Positions 8,976 to 46,908 of a stretch of 64,000 nucleotides of DNA are shown in pieces (positions within the stretch are counted from its first letter, which is position 1; every line of letters begins with the position of its first letter). A program made the position numbers and the translations under genes. The notes beneath the pieces were generated by a model. That model was not told where the DNA came from and did not search any database. It saw only the letters and a list, made by a program, of their open reading frames with translations. The stretch is from a virus (taxonomy: Duplodnaviria; Caudoviricetes). The stretch lies in IMG/VR virus record IMGVR_UViG_3300013212_000088, positions 160,001 to 224,000 of that record. One strand, given 5' to 3'.

Positions 8976-9830
8976 TTAACTGACTGTAATTTTACTCACA
9001 GCAAAATCGTTGATGAGAGCAAATCCGAGCTCTTCGTAAACAACCCATCCGAGACGAAGTCTCTTTGGATCGTCAGCTGGAAGAACGGTAATGTCTTGGC
9101 GAACTGGCATTGCACCAACGAATTGGGCAGGTGCTAGGACGTAGACAGCGTTCTTAGGAACCATGGTGCTGACGTGGATGTCTGCAGAGTAGATATGGCC
9201 GTAGAGACCGGTCATAAGGATGTCTCTTTGAGTTGCCTCATCGAAGAATTCCTTACCCCAGTTTCTGATATCCTTGTATCTTTGTGGGTGAAGAACAACC
9301 TTAGCACCGATGAGTTCGTGCTCTTCAATGAGAGTCAACGCAAGGTTGATGTTCTCTGGTTGAAGAGTACCGGAAACACTGATGGATTGGTCGGTTGGAA
9401 CACCGGCATTGATGACCTTGAAGACTTCAGTATCTTCTTGTCTTTGGAGGGAGTCCTTAGCACGGACTTGAGCTCTATCGACAATGTAGAATCTTCTTTG
9501 GCGAATCTCATTGAGTCTGATTTGTGGGTGAGCAGCAAGTTCAATTGTTGGAACGAGGAGCTCTTCAGCTTCGACTTCTGCGGATGGAACACCACCACGC
9601 TTAGGAATGACGTAGGACTTTACAGCAACGTCTCTTTCGTAGCGAGCAAGTGCGCCTTGTGGAAGCTCATCGACCATCAATAACTTACGACCAATTGCTT
9701 GGTACATAAGGGAGGTCTTGATTGGCTCGACCATAGCTTGTGCAAGAGCTGTACGACCTTCAGCGGTCTCGAGCGCCATTGCAATAATGGCCTCTCTTTG
9801 CTCGTTTGAGTTTCTCTTAATCATTGACAT
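8976..9830 (-). CDS. Major capsid protein, HK97 fold (284 aa)
   Basis: HK97-like pattern (E-loop LPQGALARYERD, spine helix RAKDSLQRQEDTEVF, GHIYSADIHVS, WVVYEELGFAL). Strong AAGGAG SD, optimised codon usage, and position at the end of the portal-protease-scaffold operon. Confidence 0.82.
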   Translation of the reverse strand: MSMIKRNSNEQREAIIAMALETAEGRTALAQAMVEPIKTSLMYQAIGRKLLMVDELPQGALARYERDVAVKSYVIPKRGGVPSAEVEAEELLVPTIELAAHPQIRLNEIRQRRFYIVDRAQVRAKDSLQRQEDTEVFKVINAGVPTDQSISVSGTLQPENINLALTLIEEHELIGAKVVLHPQRYKDIRNWGKEFFDEATQRDILMTGLYGHIYSADIHVSTMVPKNAVYVLAPAQFVGAMPVRQDITVLPADDPKRLRLGWVVYEELGFALINDFAVSKITVS

Positions 9831-12299: not shown

Positions 12300-15200
12300 T
12301 TAGTCAATCCAAGTAATTGTAACGTCAAGTTTGCTTGGATTTTTCTTGTTTTGAGCAACGGTGGTTTTGGAAATATTTCCGCAAGAATGGCAGAAAGAAG
12401 TATCCTTAACCTTGTTAGCTTCTCTATTACCGCACTTAGGGCAGACCATACCAATTGGCAATCTTCTAGATGCTGTTCTGGTAAATCCTTCCTTTGCAGT
12501 TTCAAGATAAACATCTGCATCAACTGTAGCTGCCAATCTAAATAAGCCCTTAACAGAAGCTGTAGCTGGTAAACCAGGCATACCTGGTGCAGGCGCTCCA
12601 GGAGCTGCAGGTGCAGGTGCACCCATAGGACCGCCAACTGGCGCTCCAGCAGCAGGATCTAAATCTCCCATACCACGCATTTCTCCCATATCTGCCTCTG
12701 GTTCTTCATCCTTCTCGCCTTGTCCGCCTGTTCCATCAGAAATAAGCTTTAAGGACATTTGAATCTCATAAGTAGATCCACATGAATTACAGGAACCCTT
12801 TGATTCAGCAACATCTACATCATCAGAACCACAAACTGGGCAAACAGTACCCCATGGTTTCTTGTCACCAGGTTCCGACATTGCATCCATGTCTTCACCA
12901 ATAGGGGCATCTGCTGCCATTGGGTCTGTGGTCATAGCAGAAATGCCTGCTCCATTAAATGCTCCAGCGTTCATACCCATGTCAGGTGCTGCAGGAGCGG
13001 CCATTCCACCACCCATACCTTGTCCTGGAGCAGCCATTTGAGCATATCTATTTAAGATTCTGCTTCTTCTTTCATTTCTTGCCATTCTAGCTTCTTCAGT
13101 CATGAGAACTTGTGGTTCACCCATTTCTTCTTCAGGGCCAATTTCTCCACCAACCATAGGAACTTCAGAAACACTTTGTGCAGAGAATGATTTTGATGTT
13201 CTGGAAGATACGGTTGCAGTAATGTCACCATAAGCAGAAACGTTCAAATCTGTGAATGAGAATGTGTTAGGATCTACTGTAAATCCATTGCCTTGAAGAA
13301 CTTCCATTGCTTTTTGTCTAAAAGCATCTTCAAATCCCTCATCATTTGGCTTAAGACCATCTAAATCTTCAGTTCTACAAACAAATCTAATTGAATCAGA
13401 TGTTTCATGAGTAACTTGCATTGCTGCTGTTCTTTCAGCATTTTGCTTTGTTTCAATAGCTTTAACAATTAACTTTTCAGCTAATTCACCATCAGATACA
13501 AGCTTCTTAGCAGCTGTTACAATTGATTTAGTTGAAAGGTTGAAATTAGTAGCATAATCTGCCAACCATCCAATAACATTTGTTGAAAGATCAGTTTTAG
13601 AAGCAACTCTTTCGCCCCAGAATTCTCTTCTAGCTCTTGATTTCAATCTTGCACTAGTAGCAGAAGCTGTTCTTGCTTTGTTAACCTCAGCAACCATGGC
13701 TTCTTCATCCATTTCTTCAACTTCTTCAGCAACTTCTTCTGCAGTCGCTCCTGCTTCTTCTGCAGACATTGCCATAGCAGAGATAACTGACTTTAAATCG
13801 TTCTTAGAAATTAAAGCATCTCCAGTAACATTGCCTCTAAGTGCAGTTCTGAGTTCTTCTGATTTGGAAACCTTAGCTTTTGCTTCAGATGTAGAACCTT
13901 TAGCATTTGACATTTTTAATTCAGCAAGTTTTGTTACAGATTCCATTGTAAAATCAACTTCACTGGCTGCAACTCTAAGTGCTTCAGCAAGATCACCAGC
14001 AGTTACTGTCTTAGAAACTTTATTTCCTAAGGATGCAAGTACAGCTGTTAAAGGTGAAGTTGAAACTCTTTCACTCTTAAAGAAATCTGCTTTAGATGCA
14101 AGTTTTGCACGAACACTTGTACCAGCTGATGCTGTTGCAATCATTTCAGGTAAAAGTTCTTCATTTGCAAGTTTTGTTGAAGCTTCTACAACTTCAGATG
14201 GTGTGGAGTATGATTCAACTACAGCTTCGCCTAATGCTTCAACTGTATGAACCATAACTTCATGAGCTGGAGCAGAACCTTCTACTCTACAGCATTCCAA
14301 TCTTTCGTTAAGTCCTTCTTCAGAAACACCCTTATTAGCTTGTGCAACTAATTCAGATAAAGCTTCTTTGACATCAGCATCATTTACTTTATGACCATAA
14401 AGGCCAGCTGAGGTTAATGCTTCTTCACCATACTCTGCATTATCTTTTCTTAAAGATTCTAAAGATTCTTCTCTAGTCTTATCAGCATTAGGATCTGCAT
14501 GCATTGTTGCAACTCCGTCAGCTAAAGTCTTATAAGGAACGCCTTTTCTTTCGCCCTTAAGTTCTAATTCTTTGACATCTTTATCCATGTGAGGGGCCTT
14601 GATTGCAGTTTTAACAAAATCTTTAAGAAGATCTGCTGCAACTCTAGCACCTTGACCACTTTCCATGGCAGAAAGTTGTTGTTCAGAAAGAATTGGTTCC
14701 CAGTTTGATCTATTACCATTAGTGAATCCGGTAATAGAACCATCTGTTGAAAGAACTAAACGATTACCAGCCCCATCCTCAACCTTAAAATCGATTGTAA
14801 CGGCGGCTGCTAATTTTTTGCGTTGTTCAGACGCTATCTTAGCAAAATGATCCATTTGATTATTTCCCTCCGCCCTAAGAGAATGGGGCGTATTGTTTCT
14901 AATATTTTTATTTCGTTCATTAGCAACTCTAATAACGTTTTGAGTAACAGAAGCAATAGATGTATTATCTGACAATGCTTCTTTGAATTGAATCAATCCC
15001 TTAGTTAGTTTTATAAATGAACTATCTTTGGGTTGAGTTGATGTGCTGGCAAAGACTTCTCTTCTGCCATCTTTAGATGCCCATACAAGATTATGTGATG
15101 AAGAAGCTAATGCAACAGCTCCTCCAACGCCTTGCTGTCCACTTGTAAATAATGCAGGCTCTATCATTCTGCCTACATTTCCTGCTGGCATATAATTGGC

Positions 15201-16526
15201 AGGAGCAACATTACCTTGTTGAGGTTGTTGTGGTTGTTGTTGTGGTTGTTGAGGTTGTTGTTGTAATTGCTGTTGGTTTAGAGGTTGTCGTTCTTGACCT
15301 CCTCCAGTGTCAATTCCATCATCAATCATGTCTTGCATTGTTGATTGAAGATCTGCCATTGATTTAGTAATTTTGCCTACGTGCACTAAATCAACATTGT
15401 CTTTACGTGCAAACATATTCATCACAGCTACTTCTAAAAAGTTAAGTGATAAATTGATAAGATCTAAAATATTTAAACCAGCCCTAGGGTCAATTCCCAA
15501 AGCTCCTAAAACTGCTTGGACTGTTGAGTTTTGGTTTGCCCCTTCTCCAGCCATCAATTGTCCGCCTACTAAAGTACCGGCAGATTGAGCTAATTTAATT
15601 GAAGTTCTAGCGGTATTTTCTGCTACTCTTAAACATTCTTCATATTCGTGTCTTACAGTTGGGTCTGATGGAGCGCCTTGTTGAGCAACCACAATATTTG
15701 CAATTAATTCAGAAGCTTTCTTTTCAGCATCAGTGGCAGCATTAAGAATATCGTCAACATCGTAGATTTCTTTAATTTCACAAGTATCAAAGGCACCATC
15801 ACCTACACAAGAAAGCTCAATGAATTTTAAATCATAGTTTTCTTCATAAATGGATTTACCTGAACCGTTTTCTTTTTTGCCTTTCCATTTTTTGAGACAA
15901 GAACAATATTCTTTTTCTGTGTATGCTTTATTTCCGCACTTAGAACATATTCCATAGGCAACCGAACAGCCCATTGATACATCATGAATTACACCAGTGC
16001 GGATATTTCTAGCAATATCAGGATAAGCTTCTTCATCTACGAAAAAAGTACAATAAACACAATTTTCAGATTCTTCCCATTCAGCATAAACGACCATGCC
16101 TTTAGCTTGCTCAATATCATCATTCTTATGGTTAGTGTAAATTGGTACACCTTCGAATGTTTTATAAGCTGGGATTTTCTCGCCCTTAACTTCAACTTCT
16201 TTTAATAATTCAGCTTTAGAAAAATAGTCTCCATTATGATTGACTGTATCTGCATCAATGGATCTAGCTCTTACCCAAAGAAGTTTAGCGTCCTTACGAG
16301 CTTTCATTTCTTTGACAATATCGAAATCTTTATATTTTTCTAAAACTTCTGAAGGATCTGCATACAAAGATTGCAAACCAATCTTAGCAGCCTCTCTCAT
16401 TTGTTTGGAAGCAGTTTTAAGCATATGTTCTCTTGCAGTATTTCTGTCATGTTCGGTGAGAAAACTATTAATTGTTATAGGCCCACCTATTGCTACTCTG
16501 TACATAAATAAATTTTTCTCCTGCAA
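12300..16526 (-). CDS. Prohead protease (HK97/assemblin-type serine protease) fused to a large scaffold/core region (1408 aa)
   Basis: N-terminal NHNGDYF...YTNH...DVSMGC...FIELSCV protease motifs with a CSKC...CSC insert; Q-rich linker; Ala/Glu helical repeats; two C-terminal CxxC-CxxC ribbons. Confidence 0.75.
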   Translation of the reverse strand: MQEKNLFMYRVAIGGPITINSFLTEHDRNTAREHMLKTASKQMREAAKIGLQSLYADPSEVLEKYKDFDIVKEMKARKDAKLLWVRARSIDADTVNHNGDYFSKAELLKEVEVKGEKIPAYKTFEGVPIYTNHKNDDIEQAKGMVVYAEWEESENCVYCTFFVDEEAYPDIARNIRTGVIHDVSMGCSVAYGICSKCGNKAYTEKEYCSCLKKWKGKKENGSGKSIYEENYDLKFIELSCVGDGAFDTCEIKEIYDVDDILNAATDAEKKASELIANIVVAQQGAPSDPTVRHEYEECLRVAENTARTSIKLAQSAGTLVGGQLMAGEGANQNSTVQAVLGALGIDPRAGLNILDLINLSLNFLEVAVMNMFARKDNVDLVHVGKITKSMADLQSTMQDMIDDGIDTGGGQERQPLNQQQLQQQPQQPQQQPQQPQQGNVAPANYMPAGNVGRMIEPALFTSGQQGVGGAVALASSSHNLVWASKDGRREVFASTSTQPKDSSFIKLTKGLIQFKEALSDNTSIASVTQNVIRVANERNKNIRNNTPHSLRAEGNNQMDHFAKIASEQRKKLAAAVTIDFKVEDGAGNRLVLSTDGSITGFTNGNRSNWEPILSEQQLSAMESGQGARVAADLLKDFVKTAIKAPHMDKDVKELELKGERKGVPYKTLADGVATMHADPNADKTREESLESLRKDNAEYGEEALTSAGLYGHKVNDADVKEALSELVAQANKGVSEEGLNERLECCRVEGSAPAHEVMVHTVEALGEAVVESYSTPSEVVEASTKLANEELLPEMIATASAGTSVRAKLASKADFFKSERVSTSPLTAVLASLGNKVSKTVTAGDLAEALRVAASEVDFTMESVTKLAELKMSNAKGSTSEAKAKVSKSEELRTALRGNVTGDALISKNDLKSVISAMAMSAEEAGATAEEVAEEVEEMDEEAMVAEVNKARTASATSARLKSRARREFWGERVASKTDLSTNVIGWLADYATNFNLSTKSIVTAAKKLVSDGELAEKLIVKAIETKQNAERTAAMQVTHETSDSIRFVCRTEDLDGLKPNDEGFEDAFRQKAMEVLQGNGFTVDPNTFSFTDLNVSAYGDITATVSSRTSKSFSAQSVSEVPMVGGEIGPEEEMGEPQVLMTEEARMARNERRSRILNRYAQMAAPGQGMGGGMAAPAAPDMGMNAGAFNGAGISAMTTDPMAADAPIGEDMDAMSEPGDKKPWGTVCPVCGSDDVDVAESKGSCNSCGSTYEIQMSLKLISDGTGGQGEKDEEPEADMGEMRGMGDLDPAAGAPVGGPMGAPAPAAPGAPAPGMPGLPATASVKGLFRLAATVDADVYLETAKEGFTRTASRRLPIGMVCPKCGNREANKVKDTSFCHSCGNISKTTVAQNKKNPSKLDVTITWID

Positions 16527-16652: not shown

Positions 16653-19031
16653 TTAAATCTTTATTTCATCTGGATCTTGTGCTTGAGATTTTCCACTTTT
16701 CTTTCGTATTGCTTGCATAACAACATTCAATACATCTTGTGGATGATCATTTAATTCTTTATCTGTAAATCTCAACATAACCCATCCATTAGAAGCAAGT
16801 TCAATATCTCTTCTTTTATCTTTTGCAATTTTTTCAGGATTGTTATGCCAAATTTCGCCATCTGCTTCAACTCCAATCTTAAGTGTTGGAATTGCTGCAT
16901 CTAATTGATAATCCATAGTAGGACCGGCTGAATATTGGGCATACAATGGATACGGTAGGTTAATAGAAAGTAAAAGACCATAAAGCTTCTTTTCTATTGA
17001 AGTAAACATTTGAGTTGTTGGTTTTTCCATTTTCTTTGCAGCATATACATTTCTTGTATCTTCACTATTTGCAAAGCTGTATTGTTCATATTCTGCGGCA
17101 TAATTTAATGCTTTTGAATAAGGACCACCAAAAGGTAATGGACTTATAACACCACCAAAACCATCATAAGTTTCAGGTACAGATCCAAGCCTACCACGTC
17201 CAGAAACAGGTGATAAACTTCTAAGAAAGCCTTCATGCGCTGCTGATTTAAATCTTCTTCCAGCAACCCTTACATTAATCAAACTTGAATTACTTTCCAA
17301 GTTTTCATAGTAAAGTTCATTCATAATAGAAGAAGCTAGTCTATAGTTTTGAATTGAGTTATTAGCCATAGGCATACCTGGCATTCCACCACCCATGCCT
17401 CCCATACCACCAGGAGGAGGAGGTGTCATTCCCATACCAGGAGCACCCATACCCATGTCCCCTCCACCAGCAGCTCCGAATCCTTGTCCAGTTACATCAC
17501 CAGATTGAAAACCATTATTAGTATCTAAATTGCCAAATGCTGGGTTTTGAACAAAGTTAGACCCTTGTTCAAATCTAAGTCTTTCAATTTCTTGATCAGG
17601 GTCTAGTCCAAATTGCTCAATAAGAGTCATGTTTGAAATAACACCATTTGAGTTAGCAGTGACAAGCATCTGCAACTTACCAGTGTCATCTCTTAATTGA
17701 AGATCATCAAACTTAATTGTAGGAAAGATAATTTCTTCTTGTCCTCTAACGCCTTCAATTGTAAAACCATTCCATTCAGCAACAGGTTTGAATACACATT
17801 GTTCAACCCATCTTGCCACTTCTCTTCTAAATGTCTCTAATCTCTGAGCCATTGCAAGGAGACCAACTTGAGCATTGCCATATGTTGGACCTTCACCATT
17901 GAGGAGAGCTTTGTTGAGCATTACACCATCTAGGATTTCTTGATCAATTAATTCATATTCATTAGTTAACTGGAGTACCTTTCCAGAAGCGCCAACATAA
18001 TCAAAGTCAAAAGCATGGTGAGTAACTAATGTAAGGTTAGGGTCGTTAGCAATTGCAGCCAACTCATCTTGAACTGAATCGAGGTCTTCTTGTGACGCTG
18101 GTCTTTGATCATTTCCTACCTTTACAACTTTAACTGGAAGGATATGTCTTTCTGCAACAATCCATTGAGATTGTCTTAATTTATCTTTATATGCTAATGT
18201 TGGAAATAATGGTCTGATAAGTGGGGTACCATAATCTTCCCAAGGGTTTGATCCATGTTTGAAATGGTGAATAGAAATAGGAGATAGTGGAATAGGATCT
18301 CCTTTCAATATAAGTTTTTTTACATTGTCAGGAATAGCATCATAATATTCTCTTGGTTGTCTCTCATTTACAATTTTGATTTCTTCAGGAGATGGTCTGT
18401 AAGTGTACATTCCAGGCTGATCAATCATACTAGGGGATTTAAGAACACTATCAGGATTTAATAAACATACAGATTTCCATGTTGCTCCATCATGTTTACA
18501 AGCTTCATTCTTTTCTTCGTCCCAGTTAGATCCTTGGCAATGCTCACAATCCAATGAAAGAAGAACAAATGCATCTCCAAGTAAGTGATAAACCTTTGAG
18601 ATTTCAGGAAGCCATTTTTGAAAGTTAATTTTTTCGATTAACTTTTCAAAATAATCTTTTACATATGATGAAGAACATTCCAATTTCCAACCAGAGAAAG
18701 GATAATTGGAATAAAAGTTAATAGCTGCAGCAATTTTTGGCTCGTTGTTTCTCCACCAGTTTGCCCAAAGATAAACTTCACGTCTAGCATTTGGAATCGA
18801 AAAAGACGTAGGAGTTAAAAATGGAGAATAGAAGTTTGGTGCGGTGGTCATTGTATTATTACCACCGGACATTTGTGCAGTTTTAGAATTAACAGAAGGG
18901 CCTAATCCACTTGTAATTCTAGAATAAGCATATTGACCTGAATATTCTGCCGATGAAACTTTCTCTCCCGATACATTTTGTGCTGCTGTTTTTAAAACGT
19001 TTGCTAATGTAGGCGCATTCTTGGAAATCAT
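16653..19031 (-). CDS. Portal protein with C-terminal DUF559 (Vsr-like) endonuclease domain
   Basis: Portal-like N-terminal part (EPKIAAAINFY, IHHFKH, WEDYGTPL, FPTIKFDDLQLRD); G/M/P linker; then TSIEKKLY...QLDAAI...VEADGEIWH...DKRRDIEL...GWVMLRF (DUF559 consensus). Confidence 0.78.
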   Translation of the reverse strand: MISKNAPTLANVLKTAAQNVSGEKVSSAEYSGQYAYSRITSGLGPSVNSKTAQMSGGNNTMTTAPNFYSPFLTPTSFSIPNARREVYLWANWWRNNEPKIAAAINFYSNYPFSGWKLECSSSYVKDYFEKLIEKINFQKWLPEISKVYHLLGDAFVLLSLDCEHCQGSNWDEEKNEACKHDGATWKSVCLLNPDSVLKSPSMIDQPGMYTYRPSPEEIKIVNERQPREYYDAIPDNVKKLILKGDPIPLSPISIHHFKHGSNPWEDYGTPLIRPLFPTLAYKDKLRQSQWIVAERHILPVKVVKVGNDQRPASQEDLDSVQDELAAIANDPNLTLVTHHAFDFDYVGASGKVLQLTNEYELIDQEILDGVMLNKALLNGEGPTYGNAQVGLLAMAQRLETFRREVARWVEQCVFKPVAEWNGFTIEGVRGQEEIIFPTIKFDDLQLRDDTGKLQMLVTANSNGVISNMTLIEQFGLDPDQEIERLRFEQGSNFVQNPAFGNLDTNNGFQSGDVTGQGFGAAGGGDMGMGAPGMGMTPPPPGGMGGMGGGMPGMPMANNSIQNYRLASSIMNELYYENLESNSSLINVRVAGRRFKSAAHEGFLRSLSPVSGRGRLGSVPETYDGFGGVISPLPFGGPYSKALNYAAEYEQYSFANSEDTRNVYAAKKMEKPTTQMFTSIEKKLYGLLLSINLPYPLYAQYSAGPTMDYQLDAAIPTLKIGVEADGEIWHNNPEKIAKDKRRDIELASNGWVMLRFTDKELNDHPQDVLNVVMQAIRKKSGKSQAQDPDEIKI

Positions 19032-25489: not shown

Positions 25490-26614
25490 TTAAACTGAAA
25501 TTCCTGCTAATTCTCTTTTACATACGTTCAATGCATTCGCAATAGTCATATCCATATCGTAATATCTGTAATTCCCCAAGCGTCCACCAATAATTAAGTT
25601 ATTAGTAAACTTTTGGTAATATTGTTTATATCTCTCATAAATTAGATTGTTCGTTTCGTCATTAACTGCATAATATGGTTGACTATTCAAATCTTTAGAA
25701 TCATATTTTTTTGAATATTCATAAGTAATTAAGTCGTATTTAGATTTACCTTTTGTGAAATGTTTGTGTTGGATTATTCTATTCCAGGATGTATTTTCAT
25801 TAGGATAATTCATTTGTGAACATCCTTGAAAATCAGTCATAACTTCATAATTTTTGAAATCTAAAGATCTATATTCTAAATCTCCATACATATAATCAAA
25901 ATATCTTTGAATTTGACCGGTATACACTATTTTATGAGCTTTAGATTCCCAATATGATCTGTCACTAAAGAAATCAACATTTAATTCAATATCAATACCC
26001 TTAAGCATTTTTTCAAATATTGGTGTATATCCGCTTACTGGTATGCCTTGATAAATATCTTGGTCTGGATAATAACTATCGTCATATGTATATCTAATTG
26101 GTAATCTTTTTATGATTGAGGATGGTAAATATTTAGGTTCTTTACCCCATTGTTTTTTCGTGTACCCATATATTAAAGTTTCGTAAATAGTGGGTCCAAC
26201 AAATGATAAAATATGTTCTTCTAAGTTTTTAGGATTTTCGCAAGGAACAATTTCAGATTGTATTTTTGCTATGGCTTTATCAGGTGTATTCACTTCTGGC
26301 CATATTTGATTAATTGTTGATAGGTTTACAGGCAAAGAATATGTTTTGCCTTTGTTTATAGCTTTAACCCTATGAGAATAATTATTGAATTCTGTAAACT
26401 CATTCAAATAGTCCCAAATATATTTTTTGGATGTATGAAATATGTGTGGGCCATATTTGTGAATATGATAATCTTCATACGGCTCTGTGTAGCAGTTTCC
26501 GCCGATATGATTTCTTTGATCAATAACTAAAACTTTCTTTCCTGTTTTATTTGCTTCATATGCAAAAATGGAGCCGAATAATCCGGCTCCAATAATCAAA
26601 TAGTCATATTTCAT
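25490..26614 (-). CDS. glf: UDP-galactopyranose mutase
   Basis: YDYLIIGAGLFG, HIGGNCY, HKYGPHIFHT, GRLGNYRYYDMD. Confidence 0.93.
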   Translation of the reverse strand: MKYDYLIIGAGLFGSIFAYEANKTGKKVLVIDQRNHIGGNCYTEPYEDYHIHKYGPHIFHTSKKYIWDYLNEFTEFNNYSHRVKAINKGKTYSLPVNLSTINQIWPEVNTPDKAIAKIQSEIVPCENPKNLEEHILSFVGPTIYETLIYGYTKKQWGKEPKYLPSSIIKRLPIRYTYDDSYYPDQDIYQGIPVSGYTPIFEKMLKGIDIELNVDFFSDRSYWESKAHKIVYTGQIQRYFDYMYGDLEYRSLDFKNYEVMTDFQGCSQMNYPNENTSWNRIIQHKHFTKGKSKYDLITYEYSKKYDSKDLNSQPYYAVNDETNNLIYERYKQYYQKFTNNLIIGGRLGNYRYYDMDMTIANALNVCKRELAGISV

Positions 26615-39281: not shown

Positions 39282-41738
39282 TTAACTACCACATGCTTCA
39301 CAGTCCGGATTATCCAACGAGCATACTGCAGAATTAAAATCATCGGGATTAAAATCTGGATTTATTTCAGGCTTGGGTGTCTCTAAAACTGGAACTTTAT
39401 CTAGTGACTGTATTCCAGAAGTATCAATTCCAAGACCCTTAATTGCAGATGCCTTTGGCTTTGTTCGAAGATAATACATACCTGTCTTCAAGCCTAACTT
39501 CCACCCATAGAAGTGTGCAGAAGATAATTTAGACATGGTGGGTTCAGCCATAAACATGTTCAAGGATTGGGACTGATCGATAAAGTAATTACGATCACGA
39601 GCCATTTCAAGAATAGTTTTGCCCTTCATTTCCCATACTGTCTTATAAACTTCACGAATCTCTGATGGGATTTCTTCAATTTCTTGAACAGAACCATTGT
39701 TAATAAATAATTTCATTCTGATATTGTCAGTCCAAAGACCATTGTTGACTAAATCTTCCACTAAATGTTTATTTACAATTGCATACTCACCTGAAAGAGT
39801 ATTTCTCTTATATAGGTTTGAAGTAAAAGGCTCAAAACACTCGTTATTACCAAGGATTTGTGCAGTAGAAGCTGTAGGCATAGGTGCAACAAGTAAAGAG
39901 TTTCTCAATCCAAATTGCTTGATTTCTTCCTTTAAAGCTAAAAAATCCCACATGCCAGATAAATTATTTGCAGTAATTCCCCATAAGTCATATTGTAATA
40001 AACCTTGAGATGCTGGAGATCCTTGGAATGAAGAATATGAACCCTCTTTAGCAGCCAAATCCTTTGATGCAGTAAGAGCAGCAAAATAAATTGTTTCAAA
40101 AATATCTTGGTTAAGCTTTCGTGCTTCATCAGATTCAAAAGCAATTCCCAACATAGCAAACGTATCTGCTAACCCTTGAACTCCCAAGCCAATAGGTCGA
40201 TGCTTAAAGTTTGAATTTTGAGTTTCTTCTGTTGGATAGAAGTTTACATCAATAACTTGATTTAAATTTACTGTTGCTTGATAAACAACTTCATACAAGA
40301 ATTTGAAATCATATCTACGTAATTTCTTATCCTTCTCACGAACTTTGCCAGATGGAATAATTACGTATTTGGGCAAAGCAATAGAAGCAAGATTACATAC
40401 AGCAGTTTCGTTTTTGTTGCTTACTTGCAAGATTTCTGTACATAAATTACTGCTATAAATCGTGCCAAGATTCTTCTGATTACTCTTATAATTACATGCA
40501 TCCTTGTAAAGCATATAAGGTGTACCAGTTTCAATTTGGGATGTAAGAACCTTTTCCCACAACTCACGAGCCTTAACAGTCTTTAACCCCTTACCTTCTG
40601 ATTCATACTTCTCATAGAGCTCGGTAAAAGCTTTATTTTCAGGTGTATCGTAAGCATCAATAAGGCCAGGAACAGTGTCAGGAGAGAAAAGCGTCCAAAC
40701 TCCATCTTCTTCAACTCGCTTCATAAACAAATCGGGAATCCAAAGAGCCAAGAATAAATCCCTTGCTCTCATTTCTTCCTTACCATGATTCTTACGAAGG
40801 TCTATGAAATCAAAGACATCTCCATGCCAAGGCTCAAGATAAACAGCAATTGAACCTTTGCGCTTTCCACCACCCTGATCTACATATCTTGCAGTCTCAT
40901 TAAAGACACGTAACATAGGAACAATACCATTTGACCAGCCATTAGTTCCCTTGATATATGCACCCTTGGCACGAATTTTATGAATATTTATTCCAATACC
41001 ACCCGCTGACTGTGAAATCTTAGCACAATCAGAAAGAGTCTTGTAAATACCTGGAATCGAGTCATCATCAATATCTAATAAGAAACAAGAAGACATTTGT
41101 GGTCTTTTTGTACCTGAATTAAACAAAGTTGGGGTTGCATGAGTGAAAAGGCCTTGAGAAAGCAAATCATATGTCTTTTGAACCATTTCTAGATTGTCAC
41201 GCCATATACCAACAGATACTCTCATATACATTTGCTGAGGAGTTTCTGCAGGCTTTCCATGGCGTTGTAGAAGATAAGATTTTTCAAGAGTCTTATATCC
41301 AAAGTAATCGAAATTAAAATCACGATCATGGACAATCATTGCATTGAGTGCTGTGGCATTCTTTTCAATAATTTCATAGACTTCATCAGAAATCAATCCA
41401 GCTGGTTCGTTATTAACTGGGTTGATGTATTCATAAAGTTCTTTTGCAACTGTTGAAAACTCTTTTGCAACATCTTTGTAAAGGGATGTAATCGTAATTC
41501 TAGCAGCCAACTTACCATAATCAGGGTGAGTTGTGATCATTGATGCTGCTGTCTCAGCACTGAGTTTATCAAGTTCACTGCTTGTTACACCATCATAAAG
41601 ACCAGATATAACCTTTTGAGCAACCTGGAAATAATCTACATAATCTTCGTTTAATCCGTATGTTTGCTTACGGATTCTAGAAGAAATCTTGTCAAACTTT
41701 ACTTGTTCAACTGTCCCGTCTCTTTTTACAACATTCAT
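39282..41738 (-). CDS. nrdA: Ribonucleotide reductase class Ia alpha subunit with ATP cone
   Basis: VVKRDG ATP cone, [31 protein letters not shown]-terminal CxxxxxxCxxC. Confidence 0.97.
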
Positions 41739-45108: not shown

Positions 45109-46908
45109 TTATTTTACATGAGGTTTAATATCAACAGTTGTCAACGTTAAACTCTTTCTACCTTGCCAATCATCAATTGACATAGTGAATGCTAAATCAA
45201 TTAAGGATCCCTCTTTTAAGTGTTCAGCTAAATAGCCTTTTCTCCAAGCATTTACATTGATCCACTGTTTTGAGTCTGGATCAGAAACTTTTAATTTAAG
45301 ATGCTTGCCACTTGTCAGAGTTTTAGTTTCTACAATTTTAAGTTTAGTACAAACAAAAATTGGAGTTTCATTTCCTGATCCAAATGGTGAGAGCCTAGTT
45401 AATTGACCAAAAACCTTTTCATTAATATCACCAGGTTCTATTCTTGAATCAAAATCAATGACTTTTACTCCTGATAACTGTCCAATAATGTCTGAAGCAT
45501 ATTCGTTCAAAGCTTCTCTCATTGCAGGAATATTATCAATTGCAAGTTCAAAACCAGCAGCAAAAGCATGACCACCACACACAGTAGAACCATCTGATCT
45601 CTTCTTAAATAATGCCCAAGCCTTCTCAGACTTTAAAGCATTCAAAATATTGAAATCTCTTAATGATCTACAAGAACCTTTAGCATATCCATCATCTTTA
45701 AATGAACATACAAGAGTTGGCTTATTAAACTTTTCAACCAACTTGCCAGCAATCAACCCTATCAATCCTGGGTGCCATTCTTTTTGACCAACAACAAGGA
45801 TATAAGTGTTAGGCAGATCAAAGTTTTGTTCTACATAAGCAATAGCATCTTCGACAGCTTTTTCTTGCTCTAATTGTCTTTTTCTATTTGCGTTATCCAG
45901 CTCTTTTGCCAACTTTTCTGCTCTTATTTGACTTGTTTCTAATAAGAGATCTAAAGCTGTTCCTGCATCAGCTAAACGTCCAATAGCATTAATTCTTGGG
46001 CCTAACTGAAAACCAATACTAAACGTATCAACTTCTTTTACACCAGCAATTTTAAGTAACTGTTGGATGCCAGGTTTCGATGTATTGGATAGCCTTTGAC
46101 AACCATAAGCAACCATAGCCTTGTTTTCATCAAGCATAGGAGCAACGTCAGCAACAGTTCCTAGGGCTACGTATTCAATCAATTCATCAATCATCTCTCT
46201 AACATCATAACCACGTTCTTTTGCTAGAGCTAACATGACTTTAAACGCAATTCCAACACCAGCAAGAGCATCAAAAGGATATCTTACAAAATCTTTATTG
46301 GAATCATTGGTAAATAAATGTCCTGGATAATTTGGATCATCTCTATTAGGATTTACTACACCTATACAATCAGGAATCTTGCCATCTTCTGAAGGGTGGT
46401 GGTGATCTGTAATAATCAAATCAAGTCCGCATGTTTTAGCATATGCAGCAGTTTCAAAAGCAACAATTCCACAGTCAACAGAAAATAATAATTGTGCTTC
46501 TGCCTTAATTGCTTCATCAACAGAATGTACTTTTATGTCATAACCGTCTTCCATTCTGTGAGGGACTTTATAAACTAGATTAGCTTTCATTTTGCGAAGA
46601 GCAGTAACTACCACTGATGTTGCAGTAATTCCGTCAACATCATAATCTCCCCAGACAAATATCTTCTCATTGTTATCTATAGCTTTATTCAAACGTGCTA
46701 AAACTGGTCGAATATCAGGGAGTAAGAATGGGTTTCGTAAAGCACTTATATCAGTCTTACAAAACTTCTCAACTTCTTTTACATCTTTCAAGCCTCTACC
46801 AGCAAGAATATTAGATATAGGTGTGGCTATTGATAAGTCTTCTGCCAATTGAGCTGAGACTTGTCTATCAAACTTTTTTAACTTCCAAACATTTTCAAAT
46901 TCTTGCAT
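45109..46908 (-). CDS. recJ: RecJ ssDNA exonuclease (DHH/DHHA1)
   Basis: WGDYDVDG, SVDCG, TDHH, GTVADV, GPRINAIGRL, KGSCRS, GGHAFAAG. Confidence 0.95.
   Translation of the reverse strand: MQEFENVWKLKKFDRQVSAQLAEDLSIATPISNILAGRGLKDVKEVEKFCKTDISALRNPFLLPDIRPVLARLNKAIDNNEKIFVWGDYDVDGITATSVVVTALRKMKANLVYKVPHRMEDGYDIKVHSVDEAIKAEAQLLFSVDCGIVAFETAAYAKTCGLDLIITDHHHPSEDGKIPDCIGVVNPNRDDPNYPGHLFTNDSNKDFVRYPFDALAGVGIAFKVMLALAKERGYDVREMIDELIEYVALGTVADVAPMLDENKAMVAYGCQRLSNTSKPGIQQLLKIAGVKEVDTFSIGFQLGPRINAIGRLADAGTALDLLLETSQIRAEKLAKELDNANRKRQLEQEKAVEDAIAYVEQNFDLPNTYILVVGQKEWHPGLIGLIAGKLVEKFNKPTLVCSFKDDGYAKGSCRSLRDFNILNALKSEKAWALFKKRSDGSTVCGGHAFAAGFELAIDNIPAMREALNEYASDIIGQLSGVKVIDFDSRIEPGDINEKVFGQLTRLSPFGSGNETPIFVCTKLKIVETKTLTSGKHLKLKVSDPDSKQWINVNAWRKGYLAEHLKEGSLIDLAFTMSIDDWQGRKSLTLTTVDIKPHVK

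What the first reader, a model, noticed from the sequence alone, without database searches (positions are those of the whole stretch)
16653..19031. Portal protein fused to a DUF559/Vsr-like endonuclease
Seen: portal core, then a G/M/P linker, RLAS and RVAG motifs, and a complete C-terminal DUF559 domain (about 16700-17010) with D and ExDG.xH residues intact, all in one frame with no intein signature. Twelve nuclease domains on a portal ring, or released by maturation cleavage, could trim or nick DNA during headful packaging, be ejected into the host, or be a domesticated homing endonuclease.
Basis: partly seen in the sequence, partly recalled or inferred. Interest (0 to 1): 0.68.

Follow-up and report, generated by a model that had tools for sequence, protein, structure and literature searches.

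The report
Giant-phage portal with tethered nuclease
The DNA-entry ring (portal) protein of this uncultivated giant phage ends in an intact-looking DNA-cutting domain on a floppy tether, and a whole clade of giant phages keeps this domain as strictly as the portal itself, so about twelve nucleases should sit inside every capsid for a purpose nobody has tested.

Summary
ORF 16653-19031 (-) encodes one 792-aa protein:
- a portal core (residues 77-495);
- a disordered G/M/P-rich linker (496-554);
- a 26.7-kDa folded module (555-792), whose last ~105 residues are a DUF559 / Vsr-fold nuclease.

All six active-site residues shared with the EDxHD homing endonuclease I-Bth0305I are present: E680, D711, E722, D724, H729 and D738.

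It is not an assembly artefact.
- 114 of the 150 best 50%-identity cluster representatives carry the fusion.
- 70 of 71 IMG/VR loci read it in one frame.
- It is single-copy in each of six related genome records.
- It co-diverges with the portal core.
- Its dN/dS (0.04-0.09) equals that of the portal core.
- In at least nine relatives an intein sits exactly inside its catalytic E-x-D motif.

The large terminase keeps its own nuclease motifs.

My preferred mechanism is inferred, not shown. The portal tethers 12 nuclease modules at the capsid-interior mouth of the DNA channel. The prohead protease, encoded immediately downstream, releases them, and they leave ahead of the DNA into the next host. 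A role in packaging or head completion is a close rival.

I found no paper describing this fusion. This scan has already found it on at least five other genomes.

The parts
16653..19031 (-). Whole portal-nuclease ORF, 792 aa plus stop
   Evidence: 100% self-match in the 261-kb virus record
18804..19031 (-). N-terminal region, residues 1-76; low-confidence, mostly disordered and variable among relatives
   Evidence: AF2 pLDDT 31-63; alignment A1
17547..18803 (-). Portal core, residues 77-495, ending in the crown helix 478-495
   Evidence: Pfam Portal_Mu and PHROG portal families. 31.6% identity to phage G gp14. The AF2 model matches solved portals (HFTV1, G20c, lambda, T4 gp20) at Foldseek E 1e-9 to 1e-6.
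17370..17546 (-). Disordered acidic linker rich in Gly/Met/Pro, residues 496-554, with no Lys or Arg; candidate site of maturation cleavage
   Evidence: AF2 pLDDT ~32; variable in length and sequence except for a G-x-G-F-G patch; composition
17010..17369 (-). 'Mid' sub-domain, residues 555-674, pI 8.9. It carries the RLAS and RVAG motifs and an invariant V-x-G-R-G. It is modelled together with the nuclease domain as one confident module and evolves faster than that domain; its fold is not identified.
   Evidence: AF2 of residues 555-792: pLDDT 83.8, pTM 0.81; dN/dS 0.12-0.38; no clear structural match; no atlas hit
16692..17009 (-). DUF559 / Vsr-fold (EDxHD-type) endonuclease domain, residues 675-780
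   Evidence: Pfam DUF559 above its cut-off. VIA-align: 3hrl Z 10.4, 3r3p (I-Bth0305I) Z 10.1, Vsr 1cw0 Z 8.3. phmmer against PDB: 3r3p E 5.7e-4.
16818..16994 (-). Stretch holding the predicted catalytic residues: E680 (16992-16994), D711 (16899-16901), E722 (16866-16868), D724 (16860-16862), H729 (16845-16847), D738 (16818-16820)
   Evidence: Translation. Mapped onto I-Bth0305I and Vsr residues through the alignment and PMC3239194. Conserved in 73/73 to 79/79 representatives.
12300..16526 (-). Gene immediately downstream: 1408-aa prohead protease-scaffold polyprotein, the candidate enzyme for clipping the linker
   Evidence: PHROG head maturation protease at residues 93-248. It lies directly downstream of the portal in 57 of 57 eligible related loci.
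27604..29730 (-). Large terminase, 708 aa, with its own ATPase and nuclease motifs
   Evidence: PHROG terminase-large-subunit families. G-R-R-S-G-K-S at 235-241, D364-E365, D504, D577 and D673-D674-x-x-D677 are invariant in 4 homologues; I recognised these motifs by eye.

Best explanation
Shown:
- The gene encodes a genuine phage-G-like (Portal_Mu-type) portal.
- Its C-terminus continues through a ~60-residue disordered linker into a 26.7-kDa folded module.
- That module ends in a DUF559 / Vsr-fold endonuclease with a complete E-D-(D)-H-D active site.
- The fusion is ancient and single-copy.
- It is under purifying selection as strong as that on the portal core.

Follows from established portal architecture (the crown, at the C-terminus, faces the capsid interior): every procapsid is built with 12 nuclease modules tethered around the inner mouth of the DNA channel.

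Inferred mechanism, my preferred reading:
1. The fusion is a capsid-targeting and positioning device.
2. The prohead protease, encoded immediately downstream, clips the linker during maturation.
3. The freed modules lie next to the exit and leave the capsid ahead of, or with, the DNA at the next infection.
4. Inside the new host they cut host or competitor DNA before any phage gene is expressed.
5. The phage's own DNA must be spared, by target specificity, by DNA modification, or by inhibition inside the capsid.

Odds:
- Real, conserved, catalytically competent fusion located inside the capsid: about 0.9.
- The release-and-ejection mechanism specifically: about 0.4.
For: Architecture and fold.

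Catalytic residues map onto I-Bth0305I E170/D196/E206/N208/H213/D222. They are kept in 73/73 to 79/79 diverse representatives.

Conservation of the fusion:
- 114 of 150 representatives;
- one continuous frame in 70 of 71 loci;
- Mantel r = 0.70, p = 0.001 between portal-core and DUF559 distances;
- dN/dS 0.036-0.085 for DUF559 against 0.026-0.061 for the core;
- a single DUF559 per genome, always in the portal ORF, in 6 records.

An intein is inserted exactly between E722 and the next residue in at least nine relatives. This shows the site is conserved at population level.

Linker and neighbouring gene:
- The linker is disordered.
- The protease-scaffold gene is directly downstream in 57 of 57 loci.

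Precedent: PBECR, 2H and InPase enzyme domains fused to portal or MuF are interpreted as packaged, injected effectors (PMC5512222; PMC5576092).

The mid sub-domain evolves 3-6 times faster than the catalytic domain. This is what a target- or host-facing part would be expected to do.
Against: - No proteomic, structural or biochemical data exist. Cleavage of the linker, presence of the module in virions, ejection and nuclease activity are all untested.
- Injected conflict effectors are usually polymorphic and paired with immunity genes. This domain is the same across a deep clade, and the next gene is the protease-scaffold.
- Conservation this deep looks more like a housekeeping morphogenetic function.
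- A DNase stored beside 350-480 kb of the phage's own DNA is hazardous and needs an unexplained sparing mechanism.
- No cleavage motif could be defined in the linker.
Confidence: 0.42

Rival explanations
1. Morphogenetic or packaging nuclease. The modules stay tethered to the portal crown and act on phage DNA at the inner mouth of the channel during or just after packaging. They might process or hold the leading DNA end, or check incoming DNA. This would be a built-in counterpart of the separate restriction-endonuclease-fold head-completion nuclease gp4 of T4-like phages, or of endonuclease VII docking on the T4 portal.
For: - Housekeeping-grade conservation, with no polymorphism: dN/dS equal to the portal core and presence in all complete relatives.
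- Strict co-divergence with the portal.
- An intein in the active site, as seen in other essential replication and packaging enzymes of this clade, including the portal core and the large terminase.
- Precedent that a PD-(D/E)xK nuclease is needed for T4 head completion and packaging (PMC7824862; PMC1189080).
- No gp4-like (DUF1064 or TnsA-like) gene was detected in these genomes. This last point is weak, because those searches are inconclusive.
Against: - The large terminase keeps a complete nuclease motif set, so the standard cuts are already covered.
- All known packaging cuts and branch resolution happen outside the capsid, whereas a portal C-terminus is inside.
- No step of packaging is known to need cleavage inside the head.
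- Nothing links the DUF559 module to gp4 by homology.
Confidence: 0.3
2. Domesticated homing endonuclease with a residual selfish or competitive role. An EDxHD/Vsr-type homing endonuclease gene fused in frame to the 3' end of the portal gene. The protein, probably as unassembled portal subunits in the cytoplasm, cuts genomes of co-infecting relatives (marker exclusion, gene conversion around the portal gene).
For: - The closest solved relative by sequence is the catalytic domain of the phage homing endonuclease I-Bth0305I.
- Vsr-like homing endonucleases are common in and around phage structural genes (PMC3239194; earlier notes of this scan).
- The clade is saturated with homing elements. 90 of 114 fused portals carry at least one intein-size insertion, which implies frequent co-infection and gene conversion.
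Against: - There is no presence/absence polymorphism and there are no empty sites within the clade.
- The domain is single-copy per genome.
- It co-diverges with the portal.
- Its dN/dS is as low as the portal core.
- No NUMOD or HTH DNA-binding region was detected.
- The E-A-D-G motif is that of bacterial DUF559 (3hrl), not the E-V-N-G of I-Bth0305I.
- A fixed homing endonuclease gene with no targets left should decay, and this one has not.
Confidence: 0.12
3. Non-catalytic structural role. The module is a plug, a headful sensor, a scaffold-docking or portal-incorporation domain, or a DNA-end binder that merely keeps a nuclease fold.
For: - The position at the crown is where the P22 barrel and other portal extensions act as sensors or plugs (established knowledge).
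- The module is compact and confidently folded.
- The linkers resemble the G/M/P-rich linkers of the scaffold polyprotein.
Against: All six active-site residues are kept in 73/73 to 79/79 representatives, despite a mean domain divergence of 61%. This is not expected for a purely structural domain.
Confidence: 0.06
4. Assembly or gene-calling artefact that joins two separate genes.
For: One related locus (L061) has an in-frame TGA inside the linker.
Against: - 70 of 71 independent loci have a continuous frame.
- Hundreds of independent metagenomic proteins share the architecture.
- Short 'stand-alone' hits all lie on 0.5-4 kb contig fragments.
Confidence: 0.01

Closest known systems
Portal protein gp14 of Bacillus/Lysinibacillus phage G (Donellivirus gee); Pfam Portal_Mu PF06074
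   Same: Closest cultured relative of the portal core: 31.6% identity over residues 41-496. It belongs to the same Pfam family and has the same position in the head module.
   Different: gp14 is 648 aa. It has no DUF559 or any other recognised C-terminal domain. The more distant metagenomic portals at 29-37% identity also lack one.
I-Bth0305I, prototype of the EDxHD (Vsr-like) homing endonucleases (PDB 3R3P; PMC3239194)
   Same: Same catalytic fold: Z 10.1, rmsd 2.3 Å over 96 residues. Best PDB sequence hit, E 5.7e-4. The E, D, H and D active-site residues and the extra acidic residue are all matched.
   Different: I-Bth0305I is encoded in a group I intron. It has an N-terminal NUMOD/HTH DNA-binding region and is a mobile, sporadically distributed element. 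Here the domain is the fixed in-frame C-terminus of a structural protein. The 'x' position is Asp (E-A-D-G) rather than Asn.
Bacterial DUF559 proteins (PF04480; NGO0050, PDB 3HRL) and Vsr (PDB 1CW0/1VSR)
   Same: Pfam membership above the cut-off. Best structural match is 3hrl: Z 10.4, rmsd 1.9 Å over 93 of 94 residues. Same V-E-A-D-G..H motif.
   Different: Those are small stand-alone or helicase-associated cellular proteins. Vsr has His at the D724 position, a zinc site and mismatch-intercalating residues, and its Pfam model does not hit this protein.
Portal- or MuF-fused enzymatic 'cargo' domains (PBECR RNase, 2H phosphoesterase, InPase; MuF polymorphic toxins): Iyer et al. 2017 PMC5512222; Jamet et al. 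2017 PMC5576092
   Same: An enzyme domain is appended C-terminally to a portal-vertex head protein, which predicts that it is packaged in the capsid and delivered to the host.
   Different: Those papers do not mention a Vsr/DUF559 DNA endonuclease on a portal. Their effectors are polymorphic, often paired with immunity genes, and mostly from temperate phages. This one is the same across a deep clade of 316-479-kb phages, with no immunity gene next to it.
T4 gp4 head-completion nuclease (PD-(D/E)xK, TnsA/EndoI-like)
   Same: A restriction-endonuclease-superfamily nuclease that works at the head or portal vertex and is needed for morphogenesis.
   Different: gp4 is a separate 150-aa protein of a different PD-(D/E)xK family. 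No homology was detected, and the DUF1064 and TnsA models find nothing in these genomes. The comparison is one of function only.

Membership tests
Phage portal protein (Pfam Portal_Mu PF06074, phage-G-like) | Sequence match to the family model above the curated cut-off | tested here: met
   41.6 bits against 23.9; PHROG portal phrog_16240 at E 3.8e-39
Phage portal protein (Pfam Portal_Mu PF06074, phage-G-like) | Portal fold (wing, stem, clip, C-terminal crown helix) | tested here: met
   The AF2 core at residues 77-495 matches solved portals at Foldseek E 1e-9 to 1e-6 over 400-500 columns
Phage portal protein (Pfam Portal_Mu PF06074, phage-G-like) | Position in the head-morphogenesis module | tested here: met
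   Gene order is large terminase, portal, protease-scaffold, major capsid protein. The protease gene is directly downstream in 57 of 57 loci.
Phage portal protein (Pfam Portal_Mu PF06074, phage-G-like) | Dodecameric ring at one capsid vertex | not testable with these tools
   Needs cryo-EM or a multimer prediction
DUF559 (PF04480) | Match above the gathering score | tested here: met
   32.5 bits against 20.6; 37 bits in the genome search
DUF559 (PF04480) | Vsr-like restriction-endonuclease fold with the D...E-x-D-G-x-x-H motif | tested here: met
   3hrl Z 10.4; D711 and E722-A-D724-G-E-I-W-H729
EDxHD homing endonucleases (I-Bth0305I type) | Conserved E, D, x, H, D catalytic residues | tested here: met
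   E680, D711, D724 (x), H729 and D738, plus E722
EDxHD homing endonucleases (I-Bth0305I type) | Encoded in, or next to, an intron or intein as a mobile element, with sporadic distribution | tested here: not met
   It is an in-frame terminal domain, present in all complete clade members, single-copy, and co-diverging with the portal
EDxHD homing endonucleases (I-Bth0305I type) | N-terminal NUMOD/HTH DNA-binding region | tested here: inconclusive
   No Pfam hit in residues 555-674. The fold of that part was not identified.
Vsr mismatch endonuclease (PF03852) | Match to the Vsr family model; His at the Vsr H64 position | tested here: not met
   No Vsr Pfam hit at E <= 0.1. The position is Asp724. 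Only the fold is similar, Z 8.3.
Portal/MuF-fused packaged effectors (polyvalent proteins, MuF polymorphic toxins) | Enzymatic domain C-terminal to a portal or MuF head domain | tested here: met
   definition from PMC5512222
Portal/MuF-fused packaged effectors (polyvalent proteins, MuF polymorphic toxins) | C-terminal domain polymorphic among related phages | tested here: not met
   The same DUF559 is found in all 114 fused representatives. Outgroup portals carry no alternative domain.
Portal/MuF-fused packaged effectors (polyvalent proteins, MuF polymorphic toxins) | Adjacent immunity gene | tested here: not met
   The next gene is the protease-scaffold in 57 of 57 loci
Portal/MuF-fused packaged effectors (polyvalent proteins, MuF polymorphic toxins) | Presence in virions and ejection into the host | not testable with these tools
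   Needs virion proteomics or infection assays
Intein | Hint splicing domain with Cys/Ser at +1 and a terminal H-N | tested here: not met
   None in the window's protein. Present in relatives.

The most novel reading that the evidence does not exclude
The portal-borne nuclease is an obligatory part of head morphogenesis in this clade. It would be a second DNA-cleaving or DNA-end-processing activity that acts from inside the capsid at the portal crown during packaging, completion or ejection. No such step is known in any tailed phage.
Probability: 0.25. Interest if true: 0.85.

Novelty: new variant of a known kind. Interest (0 to 1): 0.62.

Why it matters
Portals are among the most conserved and best-studied parts of tailed viruses, and they are thought to be enzymatically inert. 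The terminase supplies the nuclease from outside.

Here a large, globally sampled clade of 316-479-kb phages builds 12 copies of an apparently active DNA endonuclease onto the capsid-interior end of the portal. It keeps them under the same constraint as the portal itself.

Either answer would be new:
- a nuclease delivered at a fixed number of copies from a fixed position as a 'first out of the gate' weapon, or
- an unknown DNA-processing step inside the head.

The isolated 26.7-kDa module is small and easy to assay. The intein that splits its active site in some relatives offers a natural conditional version of it.

Tried and rejected
I therefore could not inspect the DNA context of the short or apparently unfused representatives (P0126, P0209, P0239, P0245) and used IMG/VR loci instead.
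- The search for free-standing homologues of residues 555-792 (lengths 'shorter') returned only fragments on 0.5-4 kb contigs, plus one 420-aa hit (P0272) on a 22.6-kb contig that I did not inspect. This is no evidence for a stand-alone form.
- Large terminase against PDB, by sequence and by a 4-sequence profile, gave no meaningful hit. The terminase nuclease motifs were therefore read by eye from the alignment.
- The mid sub-domain (555-674) has no Pfam hit, no convincing structural match and no ESM-atlas hit.
- The DUF1064 (gp4-related) and TnsA-like models found nothing in these genomes or in phage G. The TnsA control rang nowhere, so absence is not shown.
- The [ST]-x-E-x-x-L motif that another note proposed as a shared head-protein signal occurs in the C-terminal module only at S678-L683 (the one other match, T356-L361, lies in the portal core). 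That is the canonical T..E..L first helix of DUF559 and includes catalytic E680. I rejected it as a cleavage or docking signal here.
- No prohead-protease cleavage motif could be defined in the linker.
- Literature searches for portal with DUF559, with very short patch repair, or with a C-terminal nuclease domain found no description of this fusion. A search on cleavage of the Mu portal gpH found nothing usable.
Full report
**What is there**

The window is bases 160001-224000 of a 261-kb IMG/VR virus record estimated to be 73% complete. On the minus strand, 16653-19031 is a single 792-aa ORF.
- Pfam finds Portal_Mu at residues 219-463 (41.6 bits, cut-off 23.9).
- Pfam finds DUF559 at residues 704-775 (32.5 bits, cut-off 20.6).
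- PHROGs finds a portal family over residues 46-426 at E 4e-39.
- The nearest cultured relative is the 648-aa portal gp14 of Bacillus phage G. It is 31.6% identical over residues 41-496 only and has no C-terminal domain.

The surrounding genes form a head module on the same strand:
- large terminase, 27604-29730;
- several unannotated ORFs;
- the portal;
- a 1408-aa prohead protease-scaffold polyprotein, 12300-16526;
- the major capsid protein, 8976-9830.

**Anatomy**

AlphaFold2 on a 43-sequence alignment gives four parts:
- a confident portal core, residues 77-495, ending in the crown helix 478-495;
- a stretch with pLDDT about 32 at 494-554;
- a second folded unit at 555-781.

The core matches solved portals (HFTV1, G20c, lambda, T4 gp20) at Foldseek E 1e-9 to 1e-6.

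Residues 555-792 folded on their own give pLDDT 83.8 and pTM 0.81, consistent with one compact 26.7-kDa module. Its last ~105 residues (675-780, nt 16692-17009) superpose on:
- the DUF559 protein NGO0050 (3hrl; Z 10.4, rmsd 1.9 Å over 93 residues);
- the catalytic domain of the homing endonuclease I-Bth0305I (3r3p; Z 10.1);
- Vsr (1cw0; Z 8.3).

By sequence, 3r3p is the best PDB hit at E 5.7e-4. The first ~120 residues of the module have no recognisable relative.

**Active site**

I used the alignment and the residue assignments published for I-Bth0305I and Vsr (PMC3239194). The correspondences are:

| This protein | I-Bth0305I | Vsr |
|---|---|---|
| E680 | E170 | E25 |
| D711 | D196 | D51 |
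| E722 | extra conserved acidic residue | position of F62 |
| D724 | N208 | H64 |
| H729 | H213 | H69 |
| D738 | D222 | D97 |

In 79 representatives the domain differs on average at 61% of positions. Conservation of these residues is 73/73, 79/79, 78/79, 77/79, 79/79 and 77/79 respectively. The domain therefore looks catalytically competent. Activity itself is untested.

**Is the fusion real and conserved?**

Yes.
- The word-indexed search returned more than 120 proteins at 52-99% identity. Nearly all are 760-810 aa with the same two Pfam domains, on contigs up to 389 kb.
- The exhaustive search of 50%-identity representatives gave 3,873 hits. Of the best 150, 114 are complete portal+DUF559 fusions.
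- The unfused complete portals are the most distant ones, at or below about 37% identity. They carry no other recognisable domain.
- Among 78 IMG/VR loci, every locus whose contig reaches far enough has the domain in place.
- 70 of 71 loci read from the portal crown to DUF559 without a stop. The exception, L061, has one TGA in the linker.
- Each of six related records (five of them 316-479 kb, plus the window's own 261-kb fragment) has exactly one DUF559 above the cut-off, always inside the portal ORF.
- Distances in the portal core and in DUF559 are correlated: Mantel r = 0.70, p = 0.001.
- Against five close relatives, dN/dS is 0.036-0.085 for DUF559 and 0.026-0.061 for the portal core. It is 0.08-0.22 for the linker and 0.12-0.38 for the mid sub-domain.

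The nuclease domain is thus as constrained as an essential structural protein. It was inherited vertically from a single fusion event.

**Inteins**

- 90 of the 114 fused representatives carry at least one intein-size insertion, and some reach 3,003 aa.
- Pfam confirms Hint plus LAGLIDADG domains in the five long relatives scanned.
- Insertion sites recur near residues 90-107, 349 and 385.
- In at least nine representatives the insertion is inside DUF559, exactly between E722 and the next residue: '..V-E | C-L ... H-N | C-D-G-x-x-W-H'.
- Terminase homologues in two relatives also carry an intein-size insert near residue 244.

An intein lodged in the E-x-D motif is independent evidence that this site is invariant across co-infecting populations.

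**How it most likely works**

In every solved portal the C-terminal crown faces the capsid interior. This is established knowledge, and it is consistent with the fold match. It follows that twelve modules hang on ~60-residue tethers around the inner mouth of the DNA channel.

An interior location makes sense for two kinds of thing:
- something that handles packaged DNA, or
- cargo to be ejected.

The terminase retains Walker A and B motifs and the three acidic nuclease motifs (D504, D577, D673-D674-x-x-D677), invariant in four homologues. I recognised these motifs by eye. The portal nuclease is therefore not replacing the terminase nuclease, and cuts made inside the head could not release a concatemer.

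I favour, at about 0.4, the reading that the fusion is a targeting and positioning device:
1. The prohead protease, encoded ~120 nt downstream in 57 of 57 loci, clips the disordered linker.
2. The modules leave ahead of the DNA at infection.
3. They attack host or competitor DNA.

This matches how Iyer et al. interpret PBECR, 2H and InPase domains fused to portal or MuF (PMC5512222), and how Jamet et al. interpret the MuF toxins (PMC5576092).

Against this reading:
- the domain is the same throughout the clade;
- it has no adjacent immunity gene;
- its conservation is of housekeeping grade.

These points suit the main rival, at about 0.3: a tethered morphogenetic nuclease analogous to T4 gp4, a PD-(D/E)xK head-completion nuclease.

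The remaining rivals are weaker:
- A still-selfish homing endonuclease, about 0.12, is disfavoured by fixation, single copy, co-divergence and low dN/dS. An origin from such an element remains plausible.
- A purely structural role, about 0.06, is disfavoured by the intact active site.

**Comparison with the known, and novelty**

The portal part is a member of Portal_Mu-type portals. The C-terminal domain is a member of Pfam DUF559 and works like an EDxHD/Vsr-type nuclease. It is not a member of the homing-endonuclease class, because it lacks their mobility and their DNA-binding architecture.

Enzymes fused to portals are a described theme. I found no paper that mentions a DUF559/Vsr nuclease on a portal. 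None of the phage records searched holds the full fusion.

I rate it a new variant of a known kind.

This scan has already reported the same fusion on at least five other genomes, with the same basic verdict. For this window I add:
- the residue-level EDxHD mapping;
- the intein in the catalytic motif;
- the dN/dS and Mantel tests;
- the single-copy census;
- the terminase check.

**Limits**

The mid sub-domain could not be folded alone. Protease specificity is unknown.

Noticed in passing
relatives P0122-P0233 (e.g. P0229, 3003 aa); sites equivalent to window residues ~90-107, ~349, ~385 and 722/723: The portal genes of this clade are extreme intein hot-spots. 90 of 114 fused representatives have at least one intein-size insertion, and some apparently have five or more (Hint + LAGLIDADG). 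The window's copy is one of the intein-free minority.
   Followed up: partly
L083/L086 (G004) and L085/L087 (G005); equivalent to window large terminase 27604-29730, near residue 244: Large-terminase homologues in two complete relatives sit in open frames of 1085 and 1050 aa, against 708 aa here. The match splits at about residue 244, just after the Walker A motif (235-241), as an intein would.
   Followed up: no
L061:7678 (IMG/VR contig of 30 kb): A single in-frame TGA lies inside the G/P-rich linker between the portal core and the nuclease module, with no start codon right after it. It could be a sequencing error, a natural split, or stop read-through that sets the ratio of short to long portal.
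   Followed up: partly
window 12300-16526 (-): A 1408-aa protein has an N-terminal head-maturation protease domain and long low-complexity G/M/P-rich and poly-Q stretches like the portal linker. It lies directly downstream of the portal in 57 of 57 related loci.
   Followed up: partly
window 25490-26614 (-): A UDP-galactopyranose mutase (Pfam GLF, E 7e-62, with a NAD_binding_8 domain) sits between the terminase and portal genes, inside the head module.
   Followed up: no
window 39282-41738 (-) and 45109-46908 (-): A ribonucleotide reductase large subunit (PHROG E 7.5e-215) and a RecJ-like ssDNA exonuclease (E 2.8e-98) lie upstream of the head module.
   Followed up: no
window 17010-17369 (-), residues 555-674: The sub-domain just before the nuclease fold evolves 3-6 times faster (dN/dS 0.12-0.38) than the catalytic domain. 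It keeps an invariant V-x-G-R-G and has no recognisable relative. It may be the substrate- or partner-recognition part.
   Followed up: partly
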